Assembly (NCBI RefSeq): GCF_009914755.1 | Contig: NC_060925.1 | From: the human T2T-CHM13v2.0 reference genome, Homo sapiens | Direction: 5' to 3' (one strand) | Length of the DNA: 64,000 nucleotides | In this document: in pieces, positions 3,480-26,296 of the stretch | Position numbering within the stretch: the first letter of the stretch is position 1 | How the letters are laid out: each line of letters opens with the position of its first letter | Made by a program: the position numbers and the translations under genes | The notes under the pieces: generated by a model | The model's input: the letters and a program-made list of their open reading frames with translations, nothing else | The model's database searches: none | Told to the model about the DNA's origin: nothing

Positions 3480-3800
3480 AAAAATACCTTTATTGAGATA
3501 TAATTCACATAGCATACAATTCACCTATTTAAAGTATACAATTCGATGCCTTTTAGTGTATTCGCAGAGTTGGGCATCCACCTTCACAACCAATTTTAAA
3601 ACATTTCTATTACCTCCCCCAAAACCCCATAACCCCTTAGCCATCACCTCCCAAATCCCCCATTCCTCCCACAGCACTAGTCTGCTTTCTGCCTCTATGC
3701 TTTTGTCTTTCCTGGACATTTCATATAAATAGAACTATACACTATGTGGCCCTTTGGCCAGGCTTTTTTCACTTAGTGTCATGTCCTCAAGGCTCATAAA
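3480..3800 (-). mobile_element. Old L1M 3'-end fragment carrying AATAAA (3489-3494 on the minus strand)
   Basis: tttattgagatataattcacatagcatacaattcacctatttaaagtataca is typical reverse-complemented L1MB/MC 3' UTR. Confidence 0.75.
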
Positions 3801-4087
3801 ATAGCATCTTTGGCCACTGAGAAGGGACCCAACAACCTGGGATAGTAGAAAGCTCCATGCAGGGAGTCCAGAAGCTGGTTCTGGCTCTGCCTCATGGCTT
3901 CTGTCCAGTGATTTAACTGGGTCCACCACAGTCCTAACTTTCCATACCTTCTACAATTAAATGTATGGCATAGTTGCAGGCCAAGGTTAGATACTAGGAA
4001 GAATTTCCTATTCTTGAAGAGCCTCCCTTTCCAGGGTGTTGGAAGACCAGGAGAAATGTTCCTTTACCTAAGGTGACCTTGGGCTAA

Positions 4088-4255
<168 letters not shown>

Positions 4256-6490
4256 AGGACAATATGAACTGATGCCTGGACTATCAGTAACCCCACTGCA
4301 CAGGCACACGATGCTCTGGGACATAACTGGTGCCTGGAAATCACCATGGTCCTCATATCTCCCATGGGAATCCTGTCCTGCCTCGAAGGAGCAGCCTGGG
4401 CAGCCATCACACCACGAGGACAGGAAGCACCAGCACGTTTCACACCTCCCCCTTCCCTCTCCCATCTTCTCATATCCTGGCTCTTCTCTGGGCAAGATGA
4501 GCCAAGCAGAACATTCCATCCAGGACACTGGAAGTTCTCCAGGATCCAGATCCATGGGGACATTAATAGTCCAAGGCATTCCCTCCCCCACCACTATTCA
4601 TAAAGTATTAACCAACTGGCACCAAGGAATTGCCTCCAGCCTGAGTCCTAGGCTCTAAAAGATATTACATATTTGAACTAATAGAGGAACTCTGAGTCAC
4701 CCATGCCAGCATCAGCTTCAGCCCCAGACCCTGCAGTTTGAGATCTGATGCTTCCTGAGGGCCAAGGCATTGCTGTAAGAAAAGGTCTAGAAATAGGTGA
4801 AAGTGAGAGGTGGGGGACAGGGGTTTCTCTTTCTGGCCTAAGGACTTTCAGGTAATCAGAGTTCATGGGCCCTCAAAGGTAAATTGCAGTTGTAGACACC
4901 GAGGATGGTTGACAACCCATGGTTGAGATGGGCACCGTTTTGCAGGAAACACCATATTAATAGACATCCTCACCATCTCCATCCGCTCTCACGCCTCCTG
5001 CAGGATCTGGGAGTGAGGGTGGAGAGTCTTTCCTCACGCTCCAGCACAGTGGCCAGGAAAAGAAATACTGAATTTGCCCCAGCCAACAGGACGTTCTTGC
5101 ACAACTTCAAGAAAAGCAGCTCAGCTCAGGATGAGTCTTCCTGCCTGAAACTGAGAGAGTGAAGAACCATAAAACGCTATGCAGAAGGAACATTATGGAG
5201 AGAAAGGGTACTGAGGCACTCTAGAATCTGCCACATTCATTTTCAAATGCAAATGCAGAAGACTTACCTTAGTTCAAGGGGAGGGGACAAAGACCCCACA
5301 GCCCAACAGCAGGACTGTAGAGGTCACTCTGACTCCATCAAACTTTTTATTGTGGCCATCTTAGGAAAATACATTCTGCCCCTGAATGATTCTGTCTAGA
5401 AAAGCTCTGGAGTATTGATCACTACTGGAAAAACACTTAAGGAGCTAAACTTACCTTCGGGGATTATTAGCTGATAAGGTTCACAGTTTCTCTCACCCAG
5501 GTGTAACTGGATTTTTTCTGGGGCCTCAATCCAGTCTTGATAACAGCGAGGAAAGAGGTATTGAAGAAACAGGGGTGGGTTTGAAGTACTATTTTCCCAG
5601 GGTGGCTTCAATCTCCCCACCTAGGATGTCAGCCCTGTCCAAGGACCTTCCCTCTTCTCCCCAGTTCCTGGGCAATCACTTCACCTTGGACAAAGGATCA
5701 GCACAGCTGGCCTCCAGATCCACATCACCACTCTTCCACTCGATTGTTCCCAGATCCTCCCTGCCTGGCCTGCTCAGAGGTTCCCTGTTGGTAACCTGGC
5801 TTTATCAAATTCTCATCCCTTTCCCACACCCACTTCTCTCCTATCACCTTCCCCCAAGATTACCTGAACAGGGTCCATGGCCACTCAACCTGTCAGCTTG
5901 CACCATCCCCACCTGCCACCTACAGTCAGGCCACATGCCTGGTCACTGAATCATGCAAAACTGGCCTCAGTCCCTAAAAATGATGTGGAAAGGAAAGCCC
6001 AGGATCTGACAATGAGCCCTGGTGGATTTGTGGGGAAAAAATACACAGCACTCCCCACCTTTCTTTCGTTCATCTCCAGGGCCCCACCTCAGATCAAAGC
6101 AGCTCTGGATGAGATGGGACCTGCAGCTCTCCCTCCACAAGGTGACTCTTAGCAACCTCATTTCGACAGTGGTTTGTAGCGTGGTGCACCAGGGCCTTGT
6201 TGAACAGATCCACACTGCTCTAATAAAGTTCCCATCCTTAATGACTCACTTGTCAACTAGTGGACTAATTAACCCTCCACCAAAAAAACACAAAGTGCTT
6301 CTGTGAGACCAATTTTGTGCTAATGAGCATTGAGACTGATGCTTTGTAAGTCACACCACAACAAATATTGATTGAGGGCGCTGCATGTGCTGGGTACATT
6401 TCTTGGCACTTGGGAATCAGTAGTCAAGCGAAACCCTTGCCTTTGAGAGTTTATGGTCTGGATAATATAAATAAACAAGTAAGCATATGT
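4256..6490 (+). other. SLAMF8: SLAMF8 3' UTR with AATAAA signals at 6222-6227 and 6470-6475
   Basis: follows the stop codon; two canonical hexamers visible; exact cleavage site is inferred. Confidence 0.7.
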
Positions 6491-6912
6491 CAGATGTTGT
6501 TAGTTTCTGTTAAAGACAAGGCAGAGTAAAGGGCTAGAGAACAATCTGTTGGGGAGACAGGGTCTGTCTTAGATAAAGCAATCAGATGACACCCTCAATG
6601 GGGTGACATTTGAACAGAGGCCCAGTGAAGTGGAGGAGTGAGCATGCAGTGACAGAGTGTTCCAGACAAAGAGACCAGAAAATGCAACGGCCCTAAAATG
6701 GCAGCATGGTTGGTGTTTGCAAAGAAGAGAGTGGAGGCCAGAGGGGCTGGATCCAAACAAGGGAGAGAGAGGGGAAGGACAAGAGTACAGAGAGATGGCC
6801 TGGGGCCACATCATATGGGACTTCGTCGGAATGCCCCTTTGTTGGAGTTACAATGACAGAAAGAACCCCTCGAGAGTCCAGATATCAGACTCCTCCCAGA
6901 ACACCCTCTACC

Positions 6913-8480: not shown

Positions 8481-9705
8481 AGAAGCATTAACTGGGTTAA
8501 CAAAATAAAGTACAAAACAAAGTTTGAACAGGTATCTGTAGAACAGGAAATGCACCCATCCATTCATTCAGTAAGCACTTACTATGCACCTACTATGTGT
8601 CAGCACCAACTGGGATACAGGAATTACTAAATAGTAGCATCACAAGCCCTGCCCTCAAAGAGCTCACAGACTGGTAAGAAAGCAATGTGTCAACAAAGGA
8701 TTCCAGTGAGTTCACAGGCACACAGCCCCTAGCATGAGCTCAAAGGCACCTCCTGGCCTGTAAGACCTCAGTCCCCAAAGACAGCCAGTCAGGTCCCCAC
8801 GGGAAACGGTAAAAGGAGAAAGCATTGCCTGGGAATAAAACTTCAGCTGGCAGGAACTGAAGACAGCATGGTATGGTGGTGTCCTGGGGCAGGCTTTCCC
8901 ACAGCAGCATCACACTTTTGTTTAACTGTGTTCCCTGAACACCAGGACATCTCATGCTGGTAGCTTGTCTTCAGGTTTCCCTTGAGATGGTACAGAAAAG
9001 GGAGAGCCACTCACAAGGGCTAGGGGCTGGTTCCATCCTCCTGGTGGTGGTTAGGGTGGTCCTGGCTGGGACGCCTGGACTGAGATGCTGATACTGTCTC
9101 ATCTGCCAGCCCACCCTGTTGGTCTTCAAGCCTGTACCCACTGGCTGGACCTGCTTAGACTCCTCAGGAGTCTTCCAAAGTCAGGTAAAGCCATTTAAAC
9201 TCTGTCTAACCAGAGAGAAAATGAAGAGGTCGGAGCTCTGTCTGCTGGCTGACCCACTCAACCATATGCCCACCTGCAGTTAACCACTCAACCATACGCC
9301 CACCTTCAGTTGGCTTAACTGCAGGAGCTCAGAGCTCCAGCATACTCACTGCAGTCCTGCTCCCAGACCAGGGAGCCACTACCCCCGCTCCCACCCCCCA
9401 GCAAAGAAGACACAACCAGTTGGTAGCCTGGACCTCTCTCTTCGATGCTCAGAAATACCCTGGGATCCCTCCTGCCCCTCATTGATAACAACCTGACAGC
9501 CTAACAGTCCCAGAAAATCCCTAACAATCCACAGACACCCAGGGTGCTGGATGCCTCCTGAGCACTGAGCACAGATCCCCACACGTAGGGATGCCTCCGC
9601 ATGAGGACATGAGAGAGGCAGATGGTGGAAGGACTGACCACAGGCCTGGCCACTCCCAGCAGAAGGACAAGAAGTGCAGGGGAAGGCCTGAGCCTCTTGG
9701 CTTAC

Positions 9706-11906: not shown

Positions 11907-12552
11907 GAGGCTGAGCAATATATTGGGTTGAATCATATGAAAATTTCATTTTTTAAGTGTAAAAATAGTCAAACACAGGTAATTTCATATGATTCAATCT
12001 AACAATTTAAATGTAAGATGACTTGAGGAAGAAAAGTCATCTCTTCAGCTGCCCTGACTCCACCTCCTATAAGGACAACTGGGACATGCCTGTAACCTAG
12101 TAGATGTTGGCAGAGCTCCTTCAACATGAACCTGGGCATGGAGGGACTGCAAGACAAGAGGGCCTCCCACAGCACTCTCAGCCCACACTGGTCGGGGGCC
12201 ATGGTGTCCTGGTCAGCTTCTCTACCACCTGGACTGAATCCTGCCTGCCCAGCTCCAGAAAGTCCTGAAACATTCAGGAGCCAAGGTTCAGAATGGCAGG
12301 GAGTGATGGAACTGCCTCAGCAACCATGGAGAACTGTCCTTGACCCCAACCCCTCTGAATCCAACCCACCTCATGCCTAGTCCTGCAGCATTCAGAGCCC
12401 CATATAGATTGTGGAAGTGAGGCCCCTGATGCTGTCTGAGGAGCCTTTCCAAGCAACAGGGGCAGTGACTTGGCCAGGCAGGCATGGTCAGACACAGAAG
12501 GGCAGTGCATCAGTCATTCCAAAGTTGCTGGCTTCATAGATACCGTGATTGT
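11907..12552. repeat. Left arm of 646-bp inverted duplication
   Basis: position x pairs with 26658-x with no indels; mirrored ORFs 12126..12380(+)/14278..14532(-) are identical. Confidence 0.97.
11921..12004. mobile_element. MADE2-like mariner MITE (~84 bp, terminal inverted repeats) in the left arm
   Basis: tattgggttgaatcatatgaaa...aatttcatatgattcaatctaa, matches MADE2 TIR pattern. Confidence 0.75.
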
Positions 12553-14105
12553 CCCTATGCCCACCCCTGCTGGGGAGCATAGCAGCTGGAAGACTTCTTT
12601 CCCTCTCAGCCAACCTGGGCCCTCAGAGGCCTTAAGATGGAGATGACTCAGCTATTGGCAGCGCCAGCTCAGCACCCTCGATTCCAGACAGACTCGGCTC
12701 TTCTCTGTCCCTTGCACCTGACATACTCATGTACTCTGCCCCTTTAACCAGGCTTCCCCCTCTGCCTCCCAGCTGAGAATATCCTTCTTTATCCATCTTG
12801 GTCTCCAGCCATCACTTCCAGGCTCAGCCCCAGGCACTCCTCCTCTCAGAAGCCTTTTCCTCAAGTGGTCTCATAGCATCAACTCTCCCAGCTTTGCATG
12901 AGCCTGAATCAACAGTTGTGTGCATTGTTCTTTAATTTTTCTAAATGAGATTAATCATCTCACTTGGAAGGCTCCATGTTCCTAGAAGGATCAGGTTTAA
13001 CACACAGTCCTACTGGTGACACTCAGTAAGCACATCGCCAAAACACACTTTTTAACGAAGTGGTTAACTCAGAGGGTGGGGAACATGCAGCTAGACAAAA
13101 TGGGCATTCTCCAGATATCTCCTCCACTGAGGAAGGCAAAACTCTCAGGCCAAGAGATTCCACATCTGCACCTCCTCTTCCAGGCAGTATAATCAGTCGG
13201 CTGGGTTCAGACAAACTTCTGCACCTCTTAGGGACCTCTTAGCCACCCAGGAGGAGATAGGCAGCTCCTTACTAAAGTCTCACCTCCTGGAGATGGGGGT
13301 TAGCTCTTCCTGCTGCAGTTTGCCTGTCTCCTCCATCCCCTTTCTTTCTTGGAAACAATATTTATTGAGTGTGTGCCATATGCCTGGCACTTTTTAGGAG
13401 CTTAAGTACATTAGTGAATAAAGCAGACAAAGACCCTTGCCTTGTGCCCCTCCTTGTGGAGCTTGCAGTGTGGGGAAAGGCGAGGACAAGTCAATTAGCA
13501 AACATCGTAACAAATAAATGTTACAGCATGTTGGAAGAGGATAAGTGCTACAGATTAAAGGGAAAAAAGCAGTGTAGGAGGGGGGGATAAGGGCGATGAG
13601 GAGCGCAGGCAGGTGGGTGCTGCAATCTTAAACGAGGTGGCCGTGGTAGACATCACTAAGAGGGAGAAAACTGAGCAAAGATTTGAAGGACGTGAGAATT
13701 AAGCCATTGGGAAATCCAGAGGAGAGCCATTCTGGGCAAAGAGAACAGCCAGAACAAGGACCCTAAGGTGTTCAAGAAACAATGAAGAGCCAGTGATGCT
13801 CAGGGGAGAGAGCCAGGAAGAAGAGTGATCAATTAGGTCAGAGAGGTGACATGGATGGCCTGGGGCACTAGTGTAAGGAACTTGATCTTGGGAAGCCATT
13901 TCAGGGGTTTGAGCAGAAGAATGATTTAACTATTCCTCTGGCTTCTCTGCTGAGAATGAACTGAAGGTGAGAGAGAGGAAGCAGGGAAATCAGTCAGGAC
14001 ACTGCTGCCGTAATCCAGGCAAGAGATGAGGGTGGCTGTGAGCTGGGAGGTAACAGGAAAGAAGGGTTTGCTTCTGGATTTGCACTGAAGACAAAGCCAA
14101 TAGAT

Positions 14106-14751
14106 ACAATCACCGTATCTATGAAGCCAGCAACTTTGGAATGACTGATGCACTGCCCTTCTGTGTCTGACCCTGCCTGCCTGGCCAAGTCATTGCCCCT
14201 GTTGCTTGGAAAGGCTCCTCAGACAGCATCAGGGGCCTCACCTCCACAATCTATATGGGGCTCTGAATGCTGCAGGACTAGGCATGAGGTGGGTTGGATT
14301 CAGAGGGGTTGGGGTCAAGGACAGTTCTCCATGGTTGCTGAGGCAGTTCCATCACTCCCTGCCATTCTGAACCTTGGCTCCTGAATGTTTCAGGACTTTC
14401 TGGAGCTGGGCAGGCAGGATTCAGTCCAGGTGGTAGAGAAGCTGACCAGGACACCATGGCCCCCGACCAGTGTGGGCTGAGAGTGCTGTGGGAGGCCCTC
14501 TTGTCTTGCAGTCCCTCCATGCCCAAGTTCATGTTGAAGGAGCTCTGCCAACATCTACTAGGTTACAGGCATGTCCCAGTTGTCCTTATAGGAGGTGGAG
14601 TCAGGGCAGCTGAAGAGATGACTTTTCTTCCTCAAGTCATCTTACATTTAAATTGTTAGATTGAATCATATGAAATTACCTGTGTTTGACTATTTTTACA
14701 CTTAAAAAATGAAATTTTCATATGATTCAACCCAATATATTGCTCAGCCTC
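14106..14751. repeat. Right arm of 646-bp inverted duplication
   Basis: reverse complement of 11907-12552; I found 5 substitutions by eye. Confidence 0.97.
14654..14737. mobile_element. MADE2-like MITE, duplicated copy in the right arm
   Basis: mirror of 11921-12004. Confidence 0.75.
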
Positions 14752-17700
14752 GTGACCCAGTGGATGTGGTGGGAGAGTGGTGAGAGAGAAAAAGGAGTTA
14801 AACAAGGACGGAGTCCCCATCAGCTGAGACAGGGAAGACAATAGGTAGGGTAGAGGCAGTATGTGGGACATGCTACATTTGAGACATCTGTTAAACATCT
14901 AAGCAGGTATGTGAGTGTGGAATGCAGGAGAAAGGGCTGGCCTGGCTGTATAAATTTTGGGTATTATTGGCATGCAGGTCTTAGGTGAATAGGTAGAGAG
15001 GTGGTGGGGGACTGGGGAGGAGATTATTCCCATCCTCATTCCTCACTTTCTCAGACTGTGTGCTACAGTCTCGGGACGGCTAATGTTTATTGAAAAGACA
15101 GAAGCAGATTTCCCCACAGGAACAACGTTGTAATAGCAGGTTAGTCTCCTGACCGAGGATCTGTTGCTCAATGTTTTCATGGCAGTGATCACAAACATGG
15201 CCTACCTTTAAGTCCTTAGTAAACTGTGAGTGAGAAGCCTGCATGCGGGACAGGAAAGAGCTTTCAACAGAGTCTGTTAAACTGTGACCTATCCTGCAGA
15301 GCTGAGCCTGACATGGCCCACGCCCTATGCCTGGGAGGCCCAGAGCTCCTGTGAGGCTGTTCCCCAGGCCCTGGCTGACTCTGCTCACCAGGTGATGAGC
15401 GCGCTTGGGGAGGGCAATGTTCACATGCACCTCTGAGAAGGATCTGGGAGAACACACGTGGCATTTTCCACCTCATGTCCTGGAGGTAACCACAGGCATT
15501 AGCTGTTGTCATTAGACTCCTCCCTAAGCTGAGGGAGCAGTCTCTAATACAAACTTTGTCCGCCACATTAATTTTAAGACAGGTCAGCGCAGAGAGGCAT
15601 TCTGAGTTCTCAAGAAAGTAGATGTTGAGAAGGGAAGAGACACAGCCCCGGCCCTCAGGGGTAAACCTAGTCTGATGGAAATGGGAGGATAACAGGATAC
15701 TCCCAAGACAGGGTGAGGATAACAAACACTGTCTGGGAGCAGGCAAGAGACTGGGATAAGAGGACAGGGTAAGGTCAGTCTGCCTTTCTGAAGAAAGAGG
15801 ACAAGGAGAGAGAGGTAGGGGAGTTTCACGGACCAGCCTTGGCAAAGGGCTGAGGTGAGGTGGGGACGGTGCTGGGACAGGGACTTGGAGCCACAACCCC
15901 AGTGTTTGGGGAGGCACAGGAGCCAGTTCAGGTGAGTGACTGCAGGGAAGAGCCACAAGGCTGCAGATGGCATCTGGGCAGAAGAAGGGGGCAGACCAGG
16001 GGGCATCTGAAGGGACTGACAGGAGGACGCTTCCCAGGCCAGAGGCAAGCCAGAAGTGGGGCCTGGATTGGGCTAAAGGAGTTCACTTCCAAGGCTGAAT
16101 GAATTCTCCCAAAAACGGTGAAGAAAATCTATGTGCCCTCCCACCCACACACCTGCCAGGAAGGTCCCTCCTCAGCTCTGGGAAAGCTGTGTGGCAACCC
16201 TTCAGGAGCGACCCTCCACCTGGGAGGGGTTGTCAAAGTCAGGGCTACAGAGGGCACCACAGTGAGCCCTGGGCTCAGAGGGAGACCATCAGGGGCCTGA
16301 GTGCCAGGAACTGAGGTCAGGCAGATGGGAAACGGCACGGGAGAACACACCCTGGCCCAGGTGGGCCACCCTGAGGATTCTGGCAGCTTATCCCCAGACT
16401 GACTCTGGGACCCTGTCGAGCTTGTGTTTCAGGTGCTTCCTGTTATCATTAGGATTATTATTACTAGTGAGGATTCTTGTCATTATTCACACCTGCATGT
16501 GGATTCCAGGACTCAGAGGCAAGTCCTGGTTCTCCTCCTTCTCTACTGGTGGCTTTCTGGACTCCTTGCCTCTTCCCCCAGATGGTGAGCCATCTCCAAA
16601 TTCAATCCCAAGGCTTCATTCTTTGTACTCCGTCCCCCTCCCTGTGGACCTCCCACTCCCCCAGCCTCTGCCGTTGACCTCTGTGTGGTTAGATCCGTGC
16701 CTCCAGGCCTGTCCTCTTGTGAGAGATGCAATTACTTTCTAGGGGTGTGGAGGGTTGAGGATCAACCATTTGCTGAGCCGTATGTTCCAGGCTCTGTAAT
16801 ATACCTGTCACACAAAACAGCCCTATTACTATTCCATTTTACAGACAAAGAAATTGAGGCTTTGGAAGCTTATTAAATAACTATAAACCCACATCTGTCT
16901 GGCTCCAAAACTGAAGCTTTTTTTCTTTGCAGATGGGAACATGGTTAACTCACAAACATGTATTACAAGTTTTCTTCCTCCTCCCTTCTTTAATTCCTCA
17001 AGAAACCTACACAGGAGTCCACTATCACCTCAAACTCAGCCTCTGCGACAATGTGATCAGCAGTTTCACCCCATCCTCCTCTGCTCAATTTCCTGCCTTT
17101 GTCAAGGCTTCAGTCTCCTCCTTGGTGCTCAGTGTCCCATCCTGCCCATCCTGCTGAAATGCATCTAAGAAGACTGGGGAGGGCAATGGCCACAGAGGGG
17201 TGGCAGAAGGCCATCCTGTCCACTCCCCACCGGCAGGCACAATGACCACGCCCAGCTCCTCCAGATTCCCCAAAGTAGCCACTATCCCCACCTTGTCTGC
17301 AAGTTCCCATGTCCTCCACACACCCCTCTGCTGCACATTCTTCCCAACCTAACTGCAAAGAACTGAATGGAATCAGTTTTGTTTCCATACACCAGGAATA
17401 AATAAAATGGTTACTCCAGATGGGCTGAATGAACGTTGAGTTAACTCCAGAATGTTAACTGTTAACTCCAGAGCAGGGGTTTCCCAGGTTCCCACCAAAT
17501 CAGGGAAATGAGCCATGAGGAGACTCCCTGGGCAGCTTAGTGGACAGGGCTACAGATTCAGTCCCCTGCCTCCAGGCAGGCCCCAACCTAAACCCATAGG
17601 AGTGAAGTAGTTTTTGTAACTCTGGAAGGATCATGATTGGGTAATTCCCAAAACTTCCTTGTTCCCAGAGAGGCAAAATAATAATAATTATTATTATTAA

Positions 17701-17797: not shown

Positions 17798-18163
<366 letters not shown>

Positions 18164-18559
18164 CTAGAGGATGACTTCCTAGAGCCTGGGGAGAGAGTCA
18201 GAGAAGGAACTGAAACAATGAGGACTCACAGGCATCTCTTGAATAGATTTCCCATGGCTAGATGCCCTGGGAGACAAATGTAGGCAAATTCTGTGGATGC
18301 CAACGCAGGTTTCTGACGGCTATCAAAAGAGTAACCTGGAACCAAGGGGATACAAATTCTCTCAATAATTCTTCAGTGACCTGAGGAACCAGAATTCAGC
18401 TCCAGCAAGGCGGGGGAGAGACGGAAAAGGCGGAACTAGGAAGTAGGATGAAGACAATTTATGTAGTATTTAATAGAAGTAGCATAACTTTGTGCTGTTT
18501 GCATCTCTCTAGAAAAATAGAGAAAAATCAAGATGTACTTGAGATTTCCATTCTTGAGG

Positions 18560-19000
18560 CAACACTTGTGTGCCCAGCGTTCTGCTTGCCTGGGGTGACA
18601 TGGTCCACCTAACTTTCCCAAGCCAGTTGTTAAATGCAGCCATTATTAAAAAGTAAATTACATACATTTATAATTAAATGATATTAAAACAAAGGCGATA
18701 AGTACTCAAAACTCACCACTTCCTGATGACTTTACTACAGTTCACTATTACCTAAGCTCTTAAAGTTATTTACTTCCTCCATTGTATCTGTATCATGGAA
18801 ATACTATACAATCATGTGCTACTAAACATTTCTCCCAATTCCATGCCAGTCACATCATGTTGGTAGCTTGAATTCAGCCATAGTGGAAGCATTGACATCA
18901 TGGAAATCAGCAAAGGCTACAAATCAGGGCTTCCCAGTCCCTACCCCACCCTACACCCTACTCCCAAAGCCACTGTTGAACATATGTCACCACAAGTGCT
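18560..19000. mobile_element. hAT-Tip100 (Arthur1-like) DNA transposon remnant
   Basis: ggtagcttgaattcagccatagtggaagcattgacatcatggaaatcagcaaaggctacaaatcagggc resembles Arthur1. Confidence 0.5.
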
Positions 19001-20349
19001 CTCCTCCAGCACTGAACAAGGTTTCATGCAGGAGAAATGAACAAAAAACACCAAGGCATCCCTGAAGCAAAATTGTTCAAACAGAAACTTCCTTCCCTCG
19101 TTCTCCTGGGGTGGTAAGTACAGTGACGACTGTGATCTCAGCATTGGATTTAGGAAATCTCTACCTTCCCTGTTGACTCACCCTAACAGGAAGCTGTTCT
19201 CAGAGTCTCTATAAAATCTCTCTTGCTGCTTTTTAGTGAGCCTTTCTTGCCAGAGCCTCACTGGTCCCACCCCCCAAATAGAGGCCAAGTCTGATCATGG
19301 CTCCCTTGTTCCTGGAATAGGGAAGATTATATCATTCAACAACCTGCACAGCCAACTGGCTGCCTCTGTCCCTCAGCACCTTTCAGGAAGCTAAGCTGGA
19401 GGCTCCTCAGACAGGGAGCACCCTCCCCAAGTCATCCTATACCATCCCCTGCCTTAGGGGATATTTTGCCTTAGGGCAAAAATATGCCAGGCACAGTGCC
19501 CTGCTGAAGATCTCTTCATCTATGACAAGTCGTCTTATAGGTGCTCATAAATATGACCAAATAAATGAAGGGATGGATGGTTCCTGGAGTTCTCTGCTCT
19601 TCTCCTTATTTAACGTCCTTTCCCTATACCTCTTCCCATTCCCAAGAACTCCCCACCTTCCCACCCCCAAGACAGTGGTCTCTGGTTCCTTTTGCCTCAT
19701 TACTATCTCTCATGTCTCTCAGCACGCTCTATAAAAGCAGAGCTGGCAATGCCATCACCCCTTTGCAAATACCCAAGTCATCTTGAGGGTTTCCTAGTTA
19801 TGTGTTACTAAGAAGTGTTTAGGGGCTTCCTAAAGACACTTTGAGGCCCATGCACACCCCACACCTCCTGTGGCCCTAGAATAGGAGCAGGAAAAATGAG
19901 GAAGACTAGCTTCTCCTCAAGAGAAAAGAGACAAAGAGAGAAGAAAGAGGCTGGGCTCTCAACAAGCAAGCAGCTGGGGAAAGGAAAGTAGAACGAAGTG
20001 ACCTTGAAGTACTGTGCTCTTCTGAACACCTCCTACCAACTAGACCAGACAAGTGTCCAGTTGTGTCCCTGTTGCAGCCATCCTGTATGGAGTGCAACCA
20101 CTTTGTCCACTAGAGGCAGCTGAATTAGAAATACAATGCTCTGGGGTCCCTAAGAGTAGAACTTGGATCAAGGGATAAAAGCTATATGGGGACAAAAACC
20201 GGGTTCAGAGAAATGTTCTGTTGAATATTGACAGTCAGAGGCCAAGTGGCCTGCCTTGGAAGGTAGTGAGCTGCCATTGGAGGTTGTCAAGAAGACGTTA
20301 CATACCCTTTGTCAGGAATGCTATAGAAGGAATTCAAATGCCAGAGAAA

Positions 20350-20560
20350 CAGCCTGCTGTCCTGGAATCAAACATGCCTAGATCAAATCCTGAATTATCT
20401 TTATTATCTTTGTTGCCTTGGTCAAGATACCTAATCCCTCTGAGCCTCAGTTTATTCATCTGTATAATGGGGATAATACACAACCTCATAGGACTAAAGT
20501 AAGGAATAAATAAGACAAAAAATCAAAAAGCACCTAACACTTAATAGGTGCTCAATAAAT
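20350..20560. mobile_element. MIR SINE
   Basis: core ctctgagcctcagtttattcatctgtataatggggataata. Confidence 0.75.
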
Positions 20561-20900
20561 GCCAATCCCCTTCCCACCAAAAGGGGGAGCTGGGTTAGTT
20601 GGCCTTGAAGGTCTTTCTACACCAGAGAGTATGACTCTAAAACACTTCCTGGCTATTAAGAAAGAAGGCATACATCTGAAAGAGATAAAAGAAGTCAAGA
20701 TTAGGTCAATGAGGGGAAGAGAAAGAAGGATGCTAAGAATGGTCAGGGATCATTTAGAGGTCATCCATGACAGAGCCGTGTTTCCTCTCAACTGACCTTC
20801 TAGAATAAAATGGAAAAGTAAGATTGGGGATTTAAAGTCCAGCCTGAGGGGCCTCAGTTTCCCTATCTGTATAGTGAAGGAGTAGGATTTTTTTTAGGTC

Positions 20901-20967
20901 AGACTTCAGAGTAATCATATTGAACTTTACTTCATAATGCTCAGTAAACACAGCTCATTATAAATCC
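20901..20967 (-). ncRNA. SNORD64: SNORD64 (HBII-13)-like box C/D snoRNA copy, probably a retro-pseudogene
   Basis: minus strand GGATTT-ATAATGA-GCTGTGTTTA-CTGA-GC-ATTATGA-AGTAAAGTTCAATATGATTACT-CTGA-AGTCT: 67 nt, terminal stem, boxes C/D'/C'/D; closely matches HBII-13 as I recall it; A8 tail 5 nt downstream (T-run 20888-20895). Confidence 0.85.
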
Positions 20968-21155
20968 AGCCAAGGCCTTTCCCAGCAACTCATGCAGCTA
21001 TATAAAATCACTAATACCTGCAGAGTGCACATCCCTTCCCAAGGACAGGGGGCCTGGGAGAATGAGATGACTAGTTTTATGTGACAATGGATGTGAAACA
21101 GCAACAGTATTGACCGACACCGAATTAAGGGGAAAATATGAAGGAAAAAAATCAA

Positions 21156-21178
21156 AGACAGACAGACAGACAGACAGA

Positions 21179-21223
<45 letters not shown>
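21156..21223. repeat. Compound microsatellite (GACA)n(CA)n
   Basis: direct reading. Confidence 0.95.
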
Positions 21224-21226
<3 letters not shown>

Positions 21227-23337
21227 GCAACCTGCCAAAAGAATAATATTGAGATCCTGGTTTTGATAGAACTAAATATAACATCTTATATTTCCACAAG
21301 CAAATTGCCCAACAAATTGAAATGGAAATATTCTAATGTTACTACAGACAGATATAATGTCAACAACTTGCTATTCTCCTCAATAATTCATTATAAACCA
21401 ATTTAAAGACCTACAGTACATTGAAAACAACCACCAAAATATTCCAGAGTTAAGTGTAAACAAATAATATGAAAGAATCAAGAAGGATGACCAAATAAAA
21501 TCAAGGCAGGCCAAACAAATGAAACACAAAGTCCAAAAGGATTCTGAGGAAGGTCTAAGCTAAGTTCTAACATCCCTGAAACAAGGGACCAAAGTGGTAA
21601 GGTAACACCATCCAAGTTGTAGCATGGAAATGATAGAACCCACACTACTTTTCCTGATACTTGTCTCCTAGCAGACATGAAACTGCTGATTTCAGGAACT
21701 TACCCTTTCAAATATATTTTTGCTACCAAAGCACAAATAATCTAACATAAAATGAACTCTTTAAATACAAATAAATTACATATAAAATAAGAAACAGCCC
21801 AGACAATTCAGATGTACAAGCACCTACCCTCTGCATCACTATACTGTCCTCATCAGCTCATCAAATACAAAATCATTCACATTCATCAAATACCCAGTTG
21901 AACTATGAGGTTCCTTCTTAAATCTTGGGCATTTAGGATGGACCTAACTGTTTTTTTTTAAGTTTAATCTTTCTCAGCACAGGAAATTAATCCAGCCAAG
22001 CTTCTCCTATTAATCATTTCTATTCCATATTAGAAATTCTTAAATTATAGGCAAGTGGGCATTGCATTAGCAAAGTAGATTCCAATGCCCAACAGAGATG
22101 ATGTTGAACAAAGAAGGATTAGTAGAGCTTGTCTACTTGTCTGCATCCCCCTCCTTGCTGTGTGACCACCTGGTCCCTTTATCAACAAAGGAACATCTAT
22201 AACACTGCCCACTTTACTTACTGTTTGCTTAGCAAATATATCCTTGGAACTTTATCTCAAACATTACTCTTCAATTAAGCACTCCCCATCTCACTAAACA
22301 AGAGAGGACGTCTTGCGCCTATTAACAAAAACAGTGCTTATTGATTTCCACTTTTGAACCAAAAATGACTAAAACATCCCCCAAAATACATTGTAAATAT
22401 CATGACAAGGTGTTTAACAAAACAAGTGCTGGTAAATACTAAATAGCTCAATTAATCCCTATCTAGGAGTGGCTGACTACTTCAGGGTGTAAGAACGTGG
22501 AGCTGGATCTCAGAAAGGCCTAGATTCTCACCACAGAATATTCCATCATAAGGCAGTAACTGTAAAATATCTAAAAACTTTTTTTTTCTAGCATAAAGTA
22601 ATGCTGCCACACTCATTCACTTGGTATTTCTCAAACATCTCCTGCAGAATGGGCTCTGCACAAGTTGACCAACTGCAGACAAATGAAAAAAAAAAAAGAA
22701 CCACAAAAATAATTGTTCTAAAACACCAGCAGCATCTAGGTGAAGGGATTTACCATACTCTCCGAGTTCCATAATATATGCTATATAAATATTATTCCCC
22801 CTCCTTCCTGCACTTCACCCAGCACCCTAGAACTGTGGCACTTAGTTTTTTAATATAAGAGGTTGTAGTCTTATTTTCACATGTCCTTGTTTCTGTCTCA
22901 CCGGATGCCTGTGCCTTCTGTGCTCCAAGGACTGGTTTCCTTTTAGCTTTCAGCAACATACAAAGACTCCCTAGACCTTCAGAGCACATTATTCTCAATA
23001 GAAAATCTTGACATGTGAAAACTTTGAATATTTAGAAATGGCAAGTGTATTGCACTTTGTCGGTTCCTCAGTTTATTTTACGGTCGTAGATATTCTGAGC
23101 TAATTCTTTTTGTCTTTGTTTTCCTTTTATCTGCACTTTGTATGTTGTTCAGAGGAGTTGCCCTGGATGGCCCCTTCCAGCTCTGACTGCCAGGGATCTA
23201 AGCAGGAGGGAGGAGAGGGGGCGTGGTCGAGGCGAGCGACAGAAGCAACCCTCCCCGGCCCTGGGCAGGGTTCGCCACCCCGTGCCCAACCTCCGTGGAA
23301 CGCGGACAGCCACTTCGGACTCACGTCTCAATGTTTC

Positions 23338-23343
23338 TTTATT
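23338..23343 (-). terminator. VSIG8: VSIG8 polyadenylation signal AATAAA
   Basis: tttatt on +, ~415 nt after the stop codon. Confidence 0.8.
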
Positions 23344-23757
23344 GTGCTAACACTGCTGCCTCAGAGCTCAGACCTCACACACAGAACAATTCGTCCAGAC
23401 AGACCCCCACCCACCCGGCCCCCGGGGCCCTCTGCTTAGGCTGGGGACACCAGGCCTCCGGCCTCAGCCGCTCTAGGACACTCAGCCTCCTCCTCCCTCC
23501 CTCTCCCCCAAGCCTTCGGTCCCGGGGGTGCGGAGAAGGCTCAGGATCGCCTTCCTCCGCCCTCGCCCGCCCCTTCCCACTTTTGGGGAGGAGGCTCTGC
23601 CTCCCTACGCATTTCCTTAGGGAAATGCCTTCACCCCCAGCCGCCTGGCAGCCTGGGGCGAGCGAGGTCGTCCCCAGCCCCGACGTGTCCCCAGCTGCAG
23701 ACAGAGAGCCCCGCGCCCTCCTCCTGGCTGGGGCGCAGCCCGGCCCGGCGCGCGCGC

Positions 23758-24031
23758 TCACACCAAGAGGCCGTTCTTGCACTGCACCGGCCCCTCGGCG
23801 CAGTCAGCCGGCTCCGCGCTCTTGACCTTGACGTAGACCGGGGAGGGGCCCGCTTCGCAGGCGGCGGCGGCGGTGCAGGGCGCCAGGGCCACGTCCTCGG
23901 GGCCGCCGCAGGGGGGAGGCGCGTACTTGCGGCGCAGGGAGCGGCTGACGTTCTGCGTCGGGTACCCCAGGAGGTGGGTGACGCGGCTGCCGCGCCCGCT
24001 GGCCTTGCACCCGGGCGCCACGGCGTCCTCT
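23758..24031 (-). CDS. VSIG8: VSIG8 exon 7, cytoplasmic tail (EDAVAPG...CKNGLLV*)
   Basis: ttttccacAG acceptor, phase 2, TGA 23760-23758; the seven exons sum to 1245 nt = 414 aa + stop. Confidence 0.95.
23762..24031 (-). CDS. SNHG28: SNHG28/C1orf204 putative ORF exon 2, same acceptor and frame as VSIG8 exon 7 but leaving through a donor inside the last VSIG8 codons
   Basis: TTG GT|GTGAGC donor at 23761-23756 overlaps VSIG8 GTG-TGA; 270 nt, phase 2-2. Confidence 0.65.
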
Positions 24032-24180
24032 CTGTGGAAAACAACAGGCGGGCGGGTGAGCGGGCTGCTCCGCAGCGGGGCGTGGGCACGGCCTGGGCAG
24101 AGCCGGGGGCTCTTGGCAACCTCTTGTCTCCCGCGCCTCCCTCCACCTGCCCTCGTCTCTCTCCCTCGGCCTCGACCTAC

Positions 24181-24242
24181 TCTCCTTTGTGACCCTTCCT
24201 GGGTCGGCGACCCTGCAGCGGTCCCGGAGCCAGCATCCCCAT
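24181..24242 (-). CDS. SNHG28: SNHG28/C1orf204 putative ORF exon 1 (MGMLAPGPLQGRRPRKGHKG), inside VSIG8 intron 6
   Basis: ATG at 24242, GA|GTAGGT donor at 24180, phase 2 matches the exon 7 acceptor. Confidence 0.6.
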
Positions 24243-24887
24243 CCTCCAGACAGGGCTTGTCCACGCGTATCTGGAGAGCCCTGCAGGCAGCCCCCTCCAG
24301 GCCCCTGCAATCCCTTTCTGATGTTTCGCAGGCCCAGAAGAAGGTGCTTTTCCTCTTCTTCTTTCCTTAGCTAATCCTGACCTTGCTCGAGCAATCTCTC
24401 TCTTTCTCACCTCCTGCCCCTCAGTCTTCTCCATCTTTCCCTCCATCCCCGAGGCATTGCAATCATTAGCACTACTAGACTTGTTCTATTTTTATTTCTA
24501 GTTTGCTTCTAATATAAGTTATTAGCACTATTCTTATTATTAGCTCTTCTTAAATAATAATGTCAGAGTTCTTACCGGCGCAGTACAGGGGAAACGTGAA
24601 AAAACATAGGCCCTGCCCTCCAGGAGCTTACAGTCTAGACAAGACAGACAGGTGCGTAGGCAGGAGGGAAATGGAAGGCAGGGAGCAGAGGTGAAGACTG
24701 GGGTGGCAGGGGGAGGGGAAAGCCATGAGTTGGGTGGCAGGTCGACATGCCGCAGTCCCAGCACTCCGTGGCGATGGCGGGCAGGGTTGGGGTGGGGGGC
24801 CCAGCCGGCCGGTGGCAGGCAGGAGTGAGGTGGGCAGGGCGCCGGTTCCCTGCCGCACAGCAGCATGCAGCATGCATCAGGTTTTAC

Positions 24888-25086
24888 CTGATCTCACTAG
24901 CCAAGTCGCCGCAGGCCCCTCCGCCGACCCCGCCGCCGTTGCCGTAGCCGAAGGCACCGCGGGCGCCGCCAGCCCCGGAGCCCCCGCAGCAGCAGCAGAC
25001 GAGCCCCCAGATGCCTACGGCCAGGCAGCCCAGCGCGAGCAGAGAGCCCAGGACGATGCCGATGATCACGCCTATACGCCGGGAGT
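24888..25086 (-). CDS. VSIG8: VSIG8 exon 6, transmembrane helix, CCCC cluster, Gly-rich segment, ASEIR
   Basis: ctccacAG / AG|GTAAAA; 199 nt; IGVIIGIVLGSLLALGCLAVGIWGLV. Confidence 0.95.
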
Positions 25087-25528
25087 CTGTGGAGAGAAGT
25101 GGAGGCAGGTCAGGCTTTCTCACAGCCTGGTAGGTGCCTGAGGGAACAGCACCAGGAGGTGCCAGGTCAGGGGTTAATGGGAAAGAGGGAGAGGGACCCA
25201 GGGGGTCTCTTAGCCCTGGAACACCCAGTGGGGAAGATATGGGGAGATGCAAGTTAACCCCTTGTGTCAGCATGCTTCTCCCAGGGCTTCCAGCTGCTCT
25301 GGGCTCTAGAGCTCAGAGTGGAAGCTGTGCTGGGCGAGCTTGACCCAGCTCAATAGGGTCAAGATCGTACCCACTGATCTTGGCCCACTTGTAGGAAAGG
25401 GGCTGGGAGCCCCCACTGGCAAATGGATGGCAGTGGAAAGGCAGAAGCAGCTGAGGCTCCAAACCAGAGCCCAGCCTCCTCCAGTTCAACCCTCCCAACC
25501 ACCCAGCCCTCAAGACTGCTGCACCTAC

Positions 25529-25648
25529 CTGAGACCTTCACCTCCACCACACAAACACTGTAGCCCACGTTGTTGGCCACTGTGCACTGATACAGCCCAT
25601 CATCTGCTCTGGAGATATCCTTCAACACCAGGTCCCCATTGTTCAGGC
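25529..25648 (-). CDS. VSIG8: VSIG8 exon 5, second half of Ig domain 2 (GLNNGDLVL...DDGLYQCTVANNVG...)
   Basis: cactttcAG / G|GTAGGT; 120 nt; DxGxYxC motif. Confidence 0.96.
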
Positions 25649-26296
25649 CTGAAAGTGAAGTGGAGAGAGGCCTGGTCTCTGAGAGCTCCCACCCCAACCT
25701 CAGTCCCTGTGGGGTGGGGGATGGGACACCCACTCTAGAAGAAGGGAAGGCTTATGCATGTGTGTACACCCACACCCACACACACACACACACACTCCAC
25801 TCTCCAGGTGAGTCACCTTCCCCCTGCTGTGAAAGAGATGCAAGAAAGGACCTCTCTCCCAGTAGCAAGACAGGGACACCATTAATTCACTCTGACCTTA
25901 GGGAAATATGTACGCTCTCTGAGCCTTGGTCTCCTCCTTTGTACAGTGAGGACAGGAGAAGCCAGGGGAAGAGGAACTCTAAGGTCCCTCCTAGCTCTAT
26001 TATTCTTTGTTTGACTGAATATTTTCAGCTTCTCTATGTACTAGGAGCTTTACACACCTCCCCCATTTAATCCTTGCATGCCCATGAAAGGTATATGTTA
26101 GTATTCCCTTTCCATATATGAAGAAATTAAGGCACAGGGAGGGTAAGCCACTTGCCTTAAACTTGGAGCCAGTCAGTGTCCCAGCCAGGATTCAAGCCCA
26201 GCTCTGTCTGAGACCAGGCTCCCTCCAAATTCGCCATAGTACTTTTGACTGACTCTCCACATTTGCCTTATCATCTGCTCTCAATAGCAGCTGCTG

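What the first reader, a model, noticed from the sequence alone, without database searches (positions are those of the whole stretch)
20888..23150. Possible retroposed fossil of a snoRNA-ended long RNA from the Prader-Willi locus
Seen: a 67-nt C/D snoRNA-like sequence (20967->20901), 5 further nt, then an A8 tract. Upstream on the same strand is ~2.2 kb of AT-rich unique-looking DNA. No TSD is visible next to the snoRNA 5' end, whereas a MIR-like element breaks at 20887 and resumes near 23151 with a degraded duplication (gaaggagtag / gaggagttg). Established: SNORD64/HBII-13 lies in the imprinted SNURF-SNRPN/SNHG14 transcript on 15q11-q13 downstream of SNORD107, and that locus makes snoRNA-ended lncRNAs (sno-lncRNAs, SPA1/2). 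Inference: the L1 template was a germ-line RNA trimmed to the SNORD64 3' end but extended at least 2.2 kb at the 5' side, such as a SNORD107-to-SNORD64 sno-lncRNA or a stable intron intermediate, later 5'-truncated. I found no SNORD107 copy in the block. It landed in sense orientation in another host intron.
Basis: partly seen in the sequence, partly recalled or inferred. Interest (0 to 1): 0.85.

Follow-up and report, generated by a model that had tools for sequence, protein, structure and literature searches.

The report
Retrocopy of Prader-Willi inter-snoRNA RNA
This 2.26-kb block on chromosome 1 is an old reverse-transcribed copy of an unspliced RNA from the Prader-Willi locus that ran from just after one small nucleolar RNA (SNORD107) to just after the next (SNORD64), which makes it a rare fossil of an RNA-processing intermediate, and the snoRNA copy it carries is dead.

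Summary
Window 20888-23150 (minus strand) has one paralogue in the genome. It is a colinear stretch on contig C15 between SNORD107 and SNORD64, at 76% identity over 2,078 aligned sites. Homology stops 5 nt after SNORD64, where the copy has an A8 tract that the parent lacks. In the parent, +5 is the exact end of an 11-bp precursor helix. The copy lacks three Alus now in the parent and splits an old MIR-type repeat. New here: the 5'-most ~184 nt are inverted and overlap the direct part by about 11-12 nt, the signature of L1 twin priming. The furthest 5' parental base captured lies only 13 nt after the SNORD107 3' end. The template was therefore an unspliced RNA spanning almost exactly the inter-snoRNA interval, trimmed and A-tailed at SNORD64. 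Whether SNORD107 capped it is open. The TSD is short and decayed, its size is uncertain, and the target is not a canonical L1 site. The snoRNA copy has lost its C and C' boxes and is the only Rfam hit in SNHG28. It is a new variant of snoRNA retroposon; the closest precedent had 90 bp of upstream sequence.

The parts
20838..20887 (-). Right (3') half of the interrupted MIR-type SINE, which is target DNA
   Evidence: Contains the core motif shared with 17 family copies. It aligns to the family from the column where the left flank ends, and the profile alignment spans it.
20876..20885 (-). Candidate target-site duplication, right copy (CTACTCCTTC)
   Evidence: Matches the left copy at 7 of 10 positions. 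The profile test favours a shorter 3-4 nt overlap, so the size is uncertain.
20888..20895 (-). A8 tail, not templated by the parent
   Evidence: The parent reads TACTGTCAG at this point. The tract is also not part of the repeat family consensus.
20896..20900 (-). 5-nt parental trailer after the snoRNA (GACCT; parent AGCCT)
   Evidence: In the parent these 5 nt form the last 5 bp of an 11-bp precursor helix.
20901..20967 (-). SNORD64 retro-pseudogene (annotated LOC124900450)
   Evidence: Rfam 87.1 bits. It differs from the parent at 7 of 67 positions, including G9>A in the C box and G32>U in the C' box. Its fold is no better than shuffled sequence (108 of 200 shuffles fold as well).
20968..22963 (-). 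Direct (sense) part of the retrocopy, equal to parent L007 3901-6756 minus three Alus
   Evidence: Four colinear BLAST blocks at 72-78.5% identity. The parent-only gaps at L007 4264-4556, 4784-5075 and 5177-5476 are Alus.
21150..21232 (-). (TG)n/(TCTG)n microsatellite carried over from the parent
   Evidence: A (TG)n run lies at the orthologous position in the parent.
22964..22966 (-). 3-nt filler at the inversion junction
   Evidence: Lies between the end of the inverted alignment (22967) and the start of the direct alignment (22963) and matches neither.
22967..23150 (+). Inverted 5' segment, the reverse complement of parent L007 about 3912 to 3746
   Evidence: Minus-strand BLAST hit 23111-22967 to L007 3892-3746, E 2.7e-17. 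Smith-Waterman alignment gives 118 of 170 identical. Within the first 23 nt of the insert, 16 of 19 aligned bases match parent 3893-3911 reverse-complemented, and 11 of 2000 shuffles reach that score.
23151..23201 (-). Left (5') half of the interrupted MIR-type SINE; 23151-23160 is the candidate left TSD copy
   Evidence: Holds the 12-nt family motif at 23183-23172. Keeping the flank up to 23151 scores 53.5-55.2 bits, against 46.7 bits if it is cut at 23169.

Best explanation
An L1-type (target-primed) reverse transcription event, probably near the base of the primates, copied an unspliced RNA from the paternally expressed SNURF-SNRPN/SNHG14 locus into a MIR-type SINE about 170 bp downstream of VSIG8. 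That site now lies in an intron of SNHG28, in sense orientation. What is shown: (1) the copy is colinear with the parent from 13 nt after SNORD107 to 5 nt after SNORD64; (2) a non-templated A8 tract follows; (3) the 5'-most ~184 nt are inverted and overlap the direct part by about 11-12 nt; (4) the copy lacks three parental Alus. What is inferred: the template was a SNORD64 precursor that had not been processed at its 5' side. Its 3' side had been trimmed by 3'-5' exonuclease down to the foot of the 11-bp terminal helix/snoRNP (+5). It was then given a short A tail by a TRAMP-like polymerase, as Weber proposed for Type-1 snoRNA retroposons. L1 reverse transcriptase primed on that tail. A second priming event on the same RNA (twin priming) produced the inverted 5' piece. 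The snoRNA copy has since lost its C and C' boxes and is inert.
For: The only paralogue in the genome is colinear: four direct blocks plus one inverted block on C15, at 76.2% identity over 2,078 sites. Homology ends at snoRNA +5, and the A8 tract is absent from the parent. In the parent, GGGCU plus the snoRNA 5' end pairs with the snoRNA 3' end plus AGCCU in an uninterrupted 11-bp helix, present in both the MFE and centroid structures. None of 200 shuffles folds as well, and the helix ends exactly at +5 even when more flank is added. A trailer of 0-9 nt plus a short A tail is the defining 3' end of Weber's Type-1 snoRTs. The inverted block has E 2.7e-17, and the inverted and direct pieces abut in the parent (3912/3901). 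The three parent-only gaps are Alus with A tails. The flanks are two halves of one repeat family (17 against 0 control). A (TG)n run is shared at the orthologous place.
Against: The TSD is decayed (7 of 10), and the profile test prefers an overlap of only 3-4 nt. The target does not resemble the TTTT/aa L1 endonuclease consensus quoted by Weber. The tail is only 8 A. The snoRNA contains AGUAAA ending 30 nt before the tail; from recall, this is a known variant poly(A) hexamer, so cryptic canonical polyadenylation is not excluded. The overlap at the inversion rests on a 19-nt alignment (11 of 2000 shuffles). The first 21 nt of the insert also resemble an internal stretch of the copy at 17 of 21 positions (D6), and a weak alignment would move the boundary to about 23168. 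No outgroup genome was available, so the empty site and the age were not observed directly. The exon-intron structure of the parent interval was not available.
Confidence: 0.7

Rival explanations
1. The event was the same L1-mediated retrocopy, but the template's 3' end was made by ordinary cleavage and polyadenylation at a cryptic site inside a naked, unassembled SNORD64 in the long host transcript. On this reading the closeness of the end to the snoRNA 3' end is a coincidence.
For: AGUAAA lies at snoRNA positions 37-42 in both parent and copy, 30 nt before the A tail. That spacing is at the upper edge of the usual range, which is recalled knowledge.
Against: There is no AAUAAA or AUUAAA in the last 45 nt. 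The end coincides to the base with the foot of an 11-bp helix. It also falls in the 0-9-nt window typical of Type-1 snoRTs. Both are expected from exonuclease trimming and not from a poly(A) signal.
Confidence: 0.15
2. L1 reverse transcriptase primed internally on an A-rich stretch of a much longer host transcript, so the A8 tract was templated.
For: Short A tracts can serve as internal priming sites (recalled). The ancestral parent sequence was not seen.
Against: Today's parent has no A-run at or near +5; it reads TACTGTCAGTCTAAGG.
Confidence: 0.04
3. The block arose by DNA-level duplication or transposition of a 2.2-kb piece of the Prader-Willi locus, with a local inversion.
For: Colinear genomic (unspliced) homology alone does not prove an RNA step.
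Against: A non-templated A tract lies exactly at one end. That end is at a snoRNA-processing landmark. The inversion sits at the opposite end with abutting and overlapping breakpoints, as in twin priming. The insertion is clean within a single SINE copy. No flank homology was found.
Confidence: 0.03
4. The retrocopy is as described, but its 5' limit 13 nt after SNORD107 is a chance stop of the second cDNA and carries no information about the template's 5' end. The template could have been any long unspliced SNHG14 or SPA1 molecule.
For: 5' ends of L1-mediated insertions are usually arbitrary (recalled). Weber's Type 1-3 snoRTs show that the reverse transcriptase can read through a snoRNA to its 5' end, so a snoRNP is not an obligatory block.
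Against: My rough estimate, which is an inference, puts the chance of stopping within about 15 nt of that landmark at a few percent. The 3' end of the same molecule is clearly landmark-defined.
Confidence: 0.55

Closest known systems
Mouse U99 (SNORA57) retroposon in Weber 2006 (PMC1687206; Results part 1, Discussion part 1 and passages read)
   Same: It ends at the mature 3' end of the snoRNA, carries upstream parental sequence, and was interpreted as polyadenylation and reverse transcription after maturation of the 3' end but not the 5' end.
   Different: U99 is an H/ACA snoRNA with 90 bp of upstream sequence. Here the snoRNA is box C/D, the upstream sequence is about 2.2 kb (3.08 kb of today's parent), it reaches to the neighbouring snoRNA, and the 5' end is inverted. 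Weber states that U99 was the only snoRNA found with substantial upstream sequence.
Type-1 snoRNA retroposons (snoRTs), Weber 2006
   Same: The 3' anatomy is the same: the snoRNA, then 0-9 parental nt, then a short A-rich tail. Insertion is in sense orientation in an intron.
   Different: Type 1, like Types 2 and 3, starts at the mature 5' end of the snoRNA. This copy does not.
SPA1 lncRNA (5' SNORD107 cap, 3' poly(A), about 34 kb, seven exons)
   Same: SPA1 is a known RNA from the same locus that begins at SNORD107 and runs through SNORD64 (passages in PMC12084880 and PMC7536080). The retrocopy covers what would be its first ~3 kb after the cap, unspliced.
   Different: SPA1 ends at a poly(A) site upstream of SNORD109A, whereas the fossil ends at SNORD64 +5. 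SNORD107 itself is not in the fossil.
sno-lncRNAs (snoRNA at both ends, from one intron)
   Same: The ends are protected by snoRNPs against exonucleases. The fossil's 3' end is at a snoRNA and its 5' limit is next to another.
   Different: The described Prader-Willi sno-lncRNAs are flanked by SNORD116 copies. PMC4234469 never mentions SNORD107 or SNORD64 (0 occurrences). Those RNAs are not polyadenylated, and the fossil lacks the 5' snoRNA.
L1 twin-priming 5' inversions
   Same: An inverted 5' piece and a direct 3' piece that abut in the template, with a small overlap and a few filler bases. The mechanism itself is recalled; for PMC4476161 only the search listing was seen.
   Different: The template here is a cellular non-coding RNA intermediate, not L1.

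Membership tests
snoRNA retroposon, Type 1 (Weber 2006) | Short A-rich tail after the snoRNA | tested here: met
   A8 at 20895-20888, absent from the parent.
snoRNA retroposon, Type 1 (Weber 2006) | 0-9 parental bases between the snoRNA 3' end and the tail | tested here: met
   5 nt, GACCT against parental AGCCT.
snoRNA retroposon, Types 1-3 (Weber 2006) | The 5' end coincides with the mature 5' end of the snoRNA | tested here: not met
   Parental homology continues about 2.2 kb upstream of the snoRNA.
snoRNA retroposon / L1-mediated retrocopy | Target-site duplication of about 7-19 bp | tested here: inconclusive
   A 10-mer matches at 7 of 10 positions at the junctions. The repeat-family profile prefers a 3-4 nt overlap. 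No empty site was available.
L1-mediated retrocopy | Insertion at a TTTT/aa-like endonuclease site | tested here: not met
   The junction sequence is not T/A-rich (consensus as quoted). After this much time it may have decayed, or the insertion may have been non-canonical.
L1-mediated retrocopy | 5' inversion with abutting or overlapping breakpoints (twin priming; optional hallmark) | tested here: met
   The inverted piece corresponds to parent L007 about 3912 to 3746 and the direct piece starts at 3901.
sno-lncRNA | snoRNA at both ends of the RNA | tested here: not met
   SNORD64 is at the 3' end only. There is no SNORD107 hit in window 18000-26000 at E<=1, and the parental homology stops 13 nt short of SNORD107. 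This describes the fossil; the RNA itself cannot be examined.
sno-lncRNA | Both snoRNAs lie in one (possibly alternative) intron | not testable with these tools
   No annotation of the C15 interval was available. The prerequisite is quoted from PMC4234469.
SPA lncRNA | 5' snoRNA cap plus a canonical 3' poly(A) site | tested here: not met
   The fossil ends at snoRNA +5 without AAUAAA or AUUAAA, and it lacks the cap snoRNA.
Functional box C/D snoRNA SNORD64 | Rfam covariance-model score above the gathering score | tested here: met
   87.1 bits against 40.
Functional box C/D snoRNA SNORD64 | Intact C box and C' box | tested here: not met
   The parental C box GTGATGA and C' box ATGATGA (atlas) read ATAATGA and ATTATGA in the copy. 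That this G is needed for core-protein binding is recalled.
Functional box C/D snoRNA SNORD64 | Stable terminal stem, and listing as an expressed locus | tested here: not met
   Fold energy is -12.3 kcal/mol and 108 of 200 shuffles fold as well, against -25.6 kcal/mol and 0 of 200 for the parent. The atlas supplement, file 1, lists RF00570 only at chr15; files 2 and 3 could not be searched.

The most novel reading that the evidence does not exclude
The template was bounded by snoRNPs at both ends. It would have been a SNORD107-capped, SNORD64-ended unspliced RNA, that is, a sno-lncRNA-like derivative of a SPA1-type transcript present in the germ line of an early primate or earlier ancestor. 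The second (twin-primed) cDNA then stopped 10-13 nt short of the SNORD107 snoRNP because the particle blocked the reverse transcriptase. A close variant is that the 5' end marks the endonucleolytic cut that frees SNORD107. On this reading the chr1 block is a dated physical record that snoRNA-bounded long RNAs of the Prader-Willi locus existed tens of millions of years ago, involving a snoRNA pair for which no such RNA has been described.
Probability: 0.3. Interest if true: 0.75.

Novelty: new variant of a known kind. Interest (0 to 1): 0.6.

Why it matters
Retrocopies preserve the ends of RNAs that existed in ancient germ cells. This one records a box C/D snoRNA precursor caught with its 3' end finished and A-tailed but its 5' side untouched for about 2.2 kb, spanning almost exactly the interval between two Prader-Willi snoRNAs. 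It adds a fourth anatomy to the three described snoRNA-retroposon types. The only precedent I found had 90 bp of upstream sequence. It supports the idea that short A-tailing of 3'-trimmed precursors feeds L1 retroposition, and it shows that the trimmed end sits at the foot of the precursor helix. It also suggests a cheap genome-wide screen for similar fossils as a record of sno-lncRNA- and SPA-like RNAs in extinct ancestors. On the practical side, the snoRNA that gives SNHG28 its "host gene" name is a decayed pseudogene.

Tried and rejected
1. Whole-genome DNA searches with each flank alone returned only the flank itself, because the tool skips words of common old repeats. They therefore gave no information about the repeat family.

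2. BLAST of the flanks against the rest of the window and L007 found only the shared MIR core in four places. Two were ordinary MIRs and two were halves of an unrelated inverted duplicate. None covered the left flank, so I switched to the two-motif pattern search.

3. An alternative 5' boundary at about 23168, suggested by a weak low-gap-penalty alignment, was tested with the repeat profile and disfavoured: 46.7 bits against 53.5-55.2 bits. It is not excluded.

4. I looked for other off-locus copies of neighbouring Prader-Willi snoRNAs to generalise the pattern. SNORD107 and SNORD108 each have one locus over the cut-off, on C15. SNORD64 has two, the parent and this copy. These are lower bounds, because only 63-68 first-look candidates were scored per search.

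5. A fold of the SNORD107 3' flank showed nothing special (126 of 200 shuffles fold as well), so no structure explains the 5' limit.

6. By eye I saw a possible 38-nt exon (a splice-acceptor-like and a donor-like site at L007 about 3780 and 3818) and a branch-point-like CUCAC at 3746-3750. None of this could be verified without annotation, and I do not rely on it.

7. Literature: 14 papers contain "SNHG28". Ten were listed, all by title and abstract start expression- or signature-type studies, and I read passages of only one of them; none that I saw describes its snoRNA. One paper holds "snoRNA", "retroposition" and "twin priming" together, and it is about U6.
Full report
**What is there.**
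On the minus strand, window 20901-20967 matches Rfam SNORD64 over its full length (87.1 bits; gathering score 40). It is the only Rfam hit at gathering level in all 64 kb. It is followed by five bases (GACCT, 20900-20896) and an A8 tract (20895-20888). The 2.2 kb upstream has GC 0.32-0.41.

**The decisive test.**
I searched the window's own genome with window 20896-23150 (minus strand). Apart from the window itself, it matched only contig C15. A sensitive BLAST against a 10-kb locus from C15 (L007) gave four colinear plus-strand blocks and one minus-strand block:

| Window (minus strand) | Parent (L007) | Identity | Orientation |
|---|---|---|---|
| 22963-22597 | 3901-4263 | 78.5% | direct |
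| 22597-22357 | 4557-4783 | 76.2% | direct |
| 22355-22255 | 5076-5176 | 73.3% | direct |
| 22271-20902 | 5461-6822 | 72.2% | direct |
| 23111-22967 | 3892-3746 | 69.7%, E 2.7e-17 | inverted |

Rfam places three snoRNAs on L007 in the order known for the Prader-Willi host transcript: SNORD107 at 3659-3733, SNORD64 at 6757-6823 and SNORD108 at 8582-8652. The three stretches found only in the parent (293, 292 and 300 nt) give Alu-type SRP hits and end in A runs. A (TG)n microsatellite lies at the same place in both copies. No homology was found for the flanks, although the query ran from 20700 to 23400. The chr1 block is therefore a specific paralogue of the SNORD107-SNORD64 interval. The chr1 side carries the marks of the derived copy.

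**The 3' end.**
The parent reads ...GAAGTCC AGCCT TACTGTCAG. The copy reads ...GAAGTCT GACCT, then A8, then repeat DNA. Homology therefore ends 5 nt after the snoRNA, and the A tract is templated neither by the parent nor by the repeat.

When the parental precursor is folded, the five bases before the snoRNA and its first six bases pair with its last six bases and the five bases after it. This is one uninterrupted 11-bp helix, seen in both the MFE and centroid structures. None of 200 shuffles folds as well. With more flank added, the helix still ends exactly at +5.

This is what a 3'-5' exonuclease halted at the helix or snoRNP would leave on a precursor that still has its 5' flank. It also matches the 3' anatomy of Weber's Type-1 snoRNA retroposons: 0-9 parental bases and a short A tail, which Weber attributed to TRAMP-like adenylation of trimmed precursors.

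One rival remains. AGUAAA lies inside the snoRNA and ends 30 nt before the tail, so it could have served as a weak poly(A) signal (its status as a variant signal is recalled). The base-exact coincidence with the foot of the helix argues against this.

**The 5' end.**
The first ~184 nt of the insert (23150-22967) are the reverse complement of parent L007 about 3912 down to 3746. The evidence is 118 of 170 identical in a local alignment. In addition, 16 of 19 aligned bases within the first 23 nt of the insert match parent 3893-3911, and 11 of 2000 shuffles reach that score. After three unassignable bases (22966-22964), the direct part starts at parent 3901.

The inverted and direct pieces thus abut in the template and overlap by about 11-12 nt. 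This is the pattern produced by L1 twin priming (mechanism recalled).

Two caveats apply:
- The first 21 nt also resemble an internal stretch of the copy at 17 of 21 positions (family D6). That is at the level of chance matches in that list.
- A permissive alignment weakly extends the inverted piece to about 23168. A profile of the repeat family disfavours that boundary.

The furthest 5' parental base captured is L007 3746, which is 13 nt after the SNORD107 3' end at 3733 (uncertainty about 3 nt).

**The target.**
A two-motif pattern taken from the two flanks occurs 17 times in the genome and 0 times in the reversed control, with a spacing of 33-44 nt. Both flanks align to this MIR-type family, and they meet at nearly the same column.

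The family profile scores the rebuilt empty site at 55.2 bits with 3 nt removed, 53.5 bits with none removed and 48.1 bits with 10 removed. A short duplication is therefore likely, but its length is uncertain. The site is not a TTTT/aa-type L1 endonuclease site.

**Age.**
Over 2,078 aligned non-snoRNA sites, identity is 76.2% (K2P 0.292). Excluding CpG sites, K2P is 0.270 over 2,010 sites. That is about 0.14 per lineage if the two lineages diverged symmetrically. Using recalled calibrations for the human lineage, this points to roughly 55-90 million years, near the base of the primates. That fits the absence of the three parental Alus. It is an inference, since no other mammalian genome was available.

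**Fate of the snoRNA copy.**
- The copy differs from the parent at 7 of 67 snoRNA positions and at 2 of 5 trailer positions.
- At positions 7, 49 and 50 the copy keeps the Rfam consensus base. At positions 9, 32, 44 and 67 the copy has changed.
- Using the box positions given in the human snoRNA atlas, G9>A hits the C box and G32>U hits the C' box.
- The terminal helix is lost: -12.3 kcal/mol, with 108 of 200 shuffles folding as well.
- The atlas file I could search lists this family only at chr15; two other files could not be searched.
- The copy is best read as a pseudogene. SNHG28 holds no other Rfam snoRNA.

**Comparison with what is known.**
All three of Weber's snoRT types start at the mature 5' end of the snoRNA. 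The paper says U99 is the only snoRNA found retroposed with substantial upstream sequence, 90 bp in mouse, and interprets it as 3'-matured but 5'-unmatured. The present copy has that logic, but in a box C/D snoRNA, with about 2.2 kb of upstream sequence and a twin-priming inversion.

From the same locus, SPA1 is a ~34-kb RNA capped by SNORD107. sno-lncRNAs are bounded by two snoRNPs from one intron. No SNORD107-SNORD64 species is mentioned in PMC4234469 (0 occurrences of either name).

My searches for this copy or for SNHG28's snoRNA found nothing relevant. Subscription-journal papers, including the original sno-lncRNA and SPA papers, are not in the library.

**Reading.**
I am about 90% sure that this is an RNA-mediated copy of the inter-snoRNA interval. 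I am about 70% sure that its 3' end reflects a trimmed, A-tailed SNORD64 precursor.

Whether the 5' limit next to SNORD107 is meaningful is open. It could reflect a SNORD107 snoRNP cap blocking the second cDNA, or the cut that releases SNORD107. By my rough estimate the coincidence would arise by chance a few percent of the time. However, Weber's types show that the reverse transcriptase can read through snoRNAs. I put this bold reading at about 30%.

Noticed in passing
window 11907-12558 and 14100-14751: A pair of inverted repeats, 98.9% identical over 652 bp and about 1.5 kb apart, lies just before the RefSeq 'enhancer' at 14857. The high identity suggests a recent inverted duplication or gene conversion.
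   Followed up: partly
window 3473-24042 (SNHG28): The only Rfam RNA in the whole window is the decayed SNORD64 copy, so the 'snoRNA host gene' name of SNHG28 rests on a pseudogene with mutated C and C' boxes. One of the papers I opened notes that almost nothing is published on SNHG28.
   Followed up: partly
window 20380-20600 (minus strand): A separate, ordinary MIR copy lies about 290 bp downstream of the interrupted MIR-type element, in the same orientation.
   Followed up: no
window 23051-23071 and 23132-23152: A 21-nt direct repeat (17 of 21) within the inverted segment, 81 nt apart (D6). It may be chance, or a small duplication near the insert's 5' end. It slightly clouds the assignment of the first 21 nt.
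   Followed up: partly
L007 4264-4556, 4784-5075, 5177-5476 (contig C15): Three Alu insertions, one reversed and two forward, lie between SNORD107 and SNORD64 in the parent. They make up 885 of the 3,083 nt of the interval and all post-date the retrocopy.
   Followed up: partly
L007 6752-6828 (contig C15): The flanks of parental SNORD64 extend its terminal stem to 11 bp (GGGCU/AGCCU). This external stem may matter for its processing. It has decayed in the copy.
   Followed up: partly
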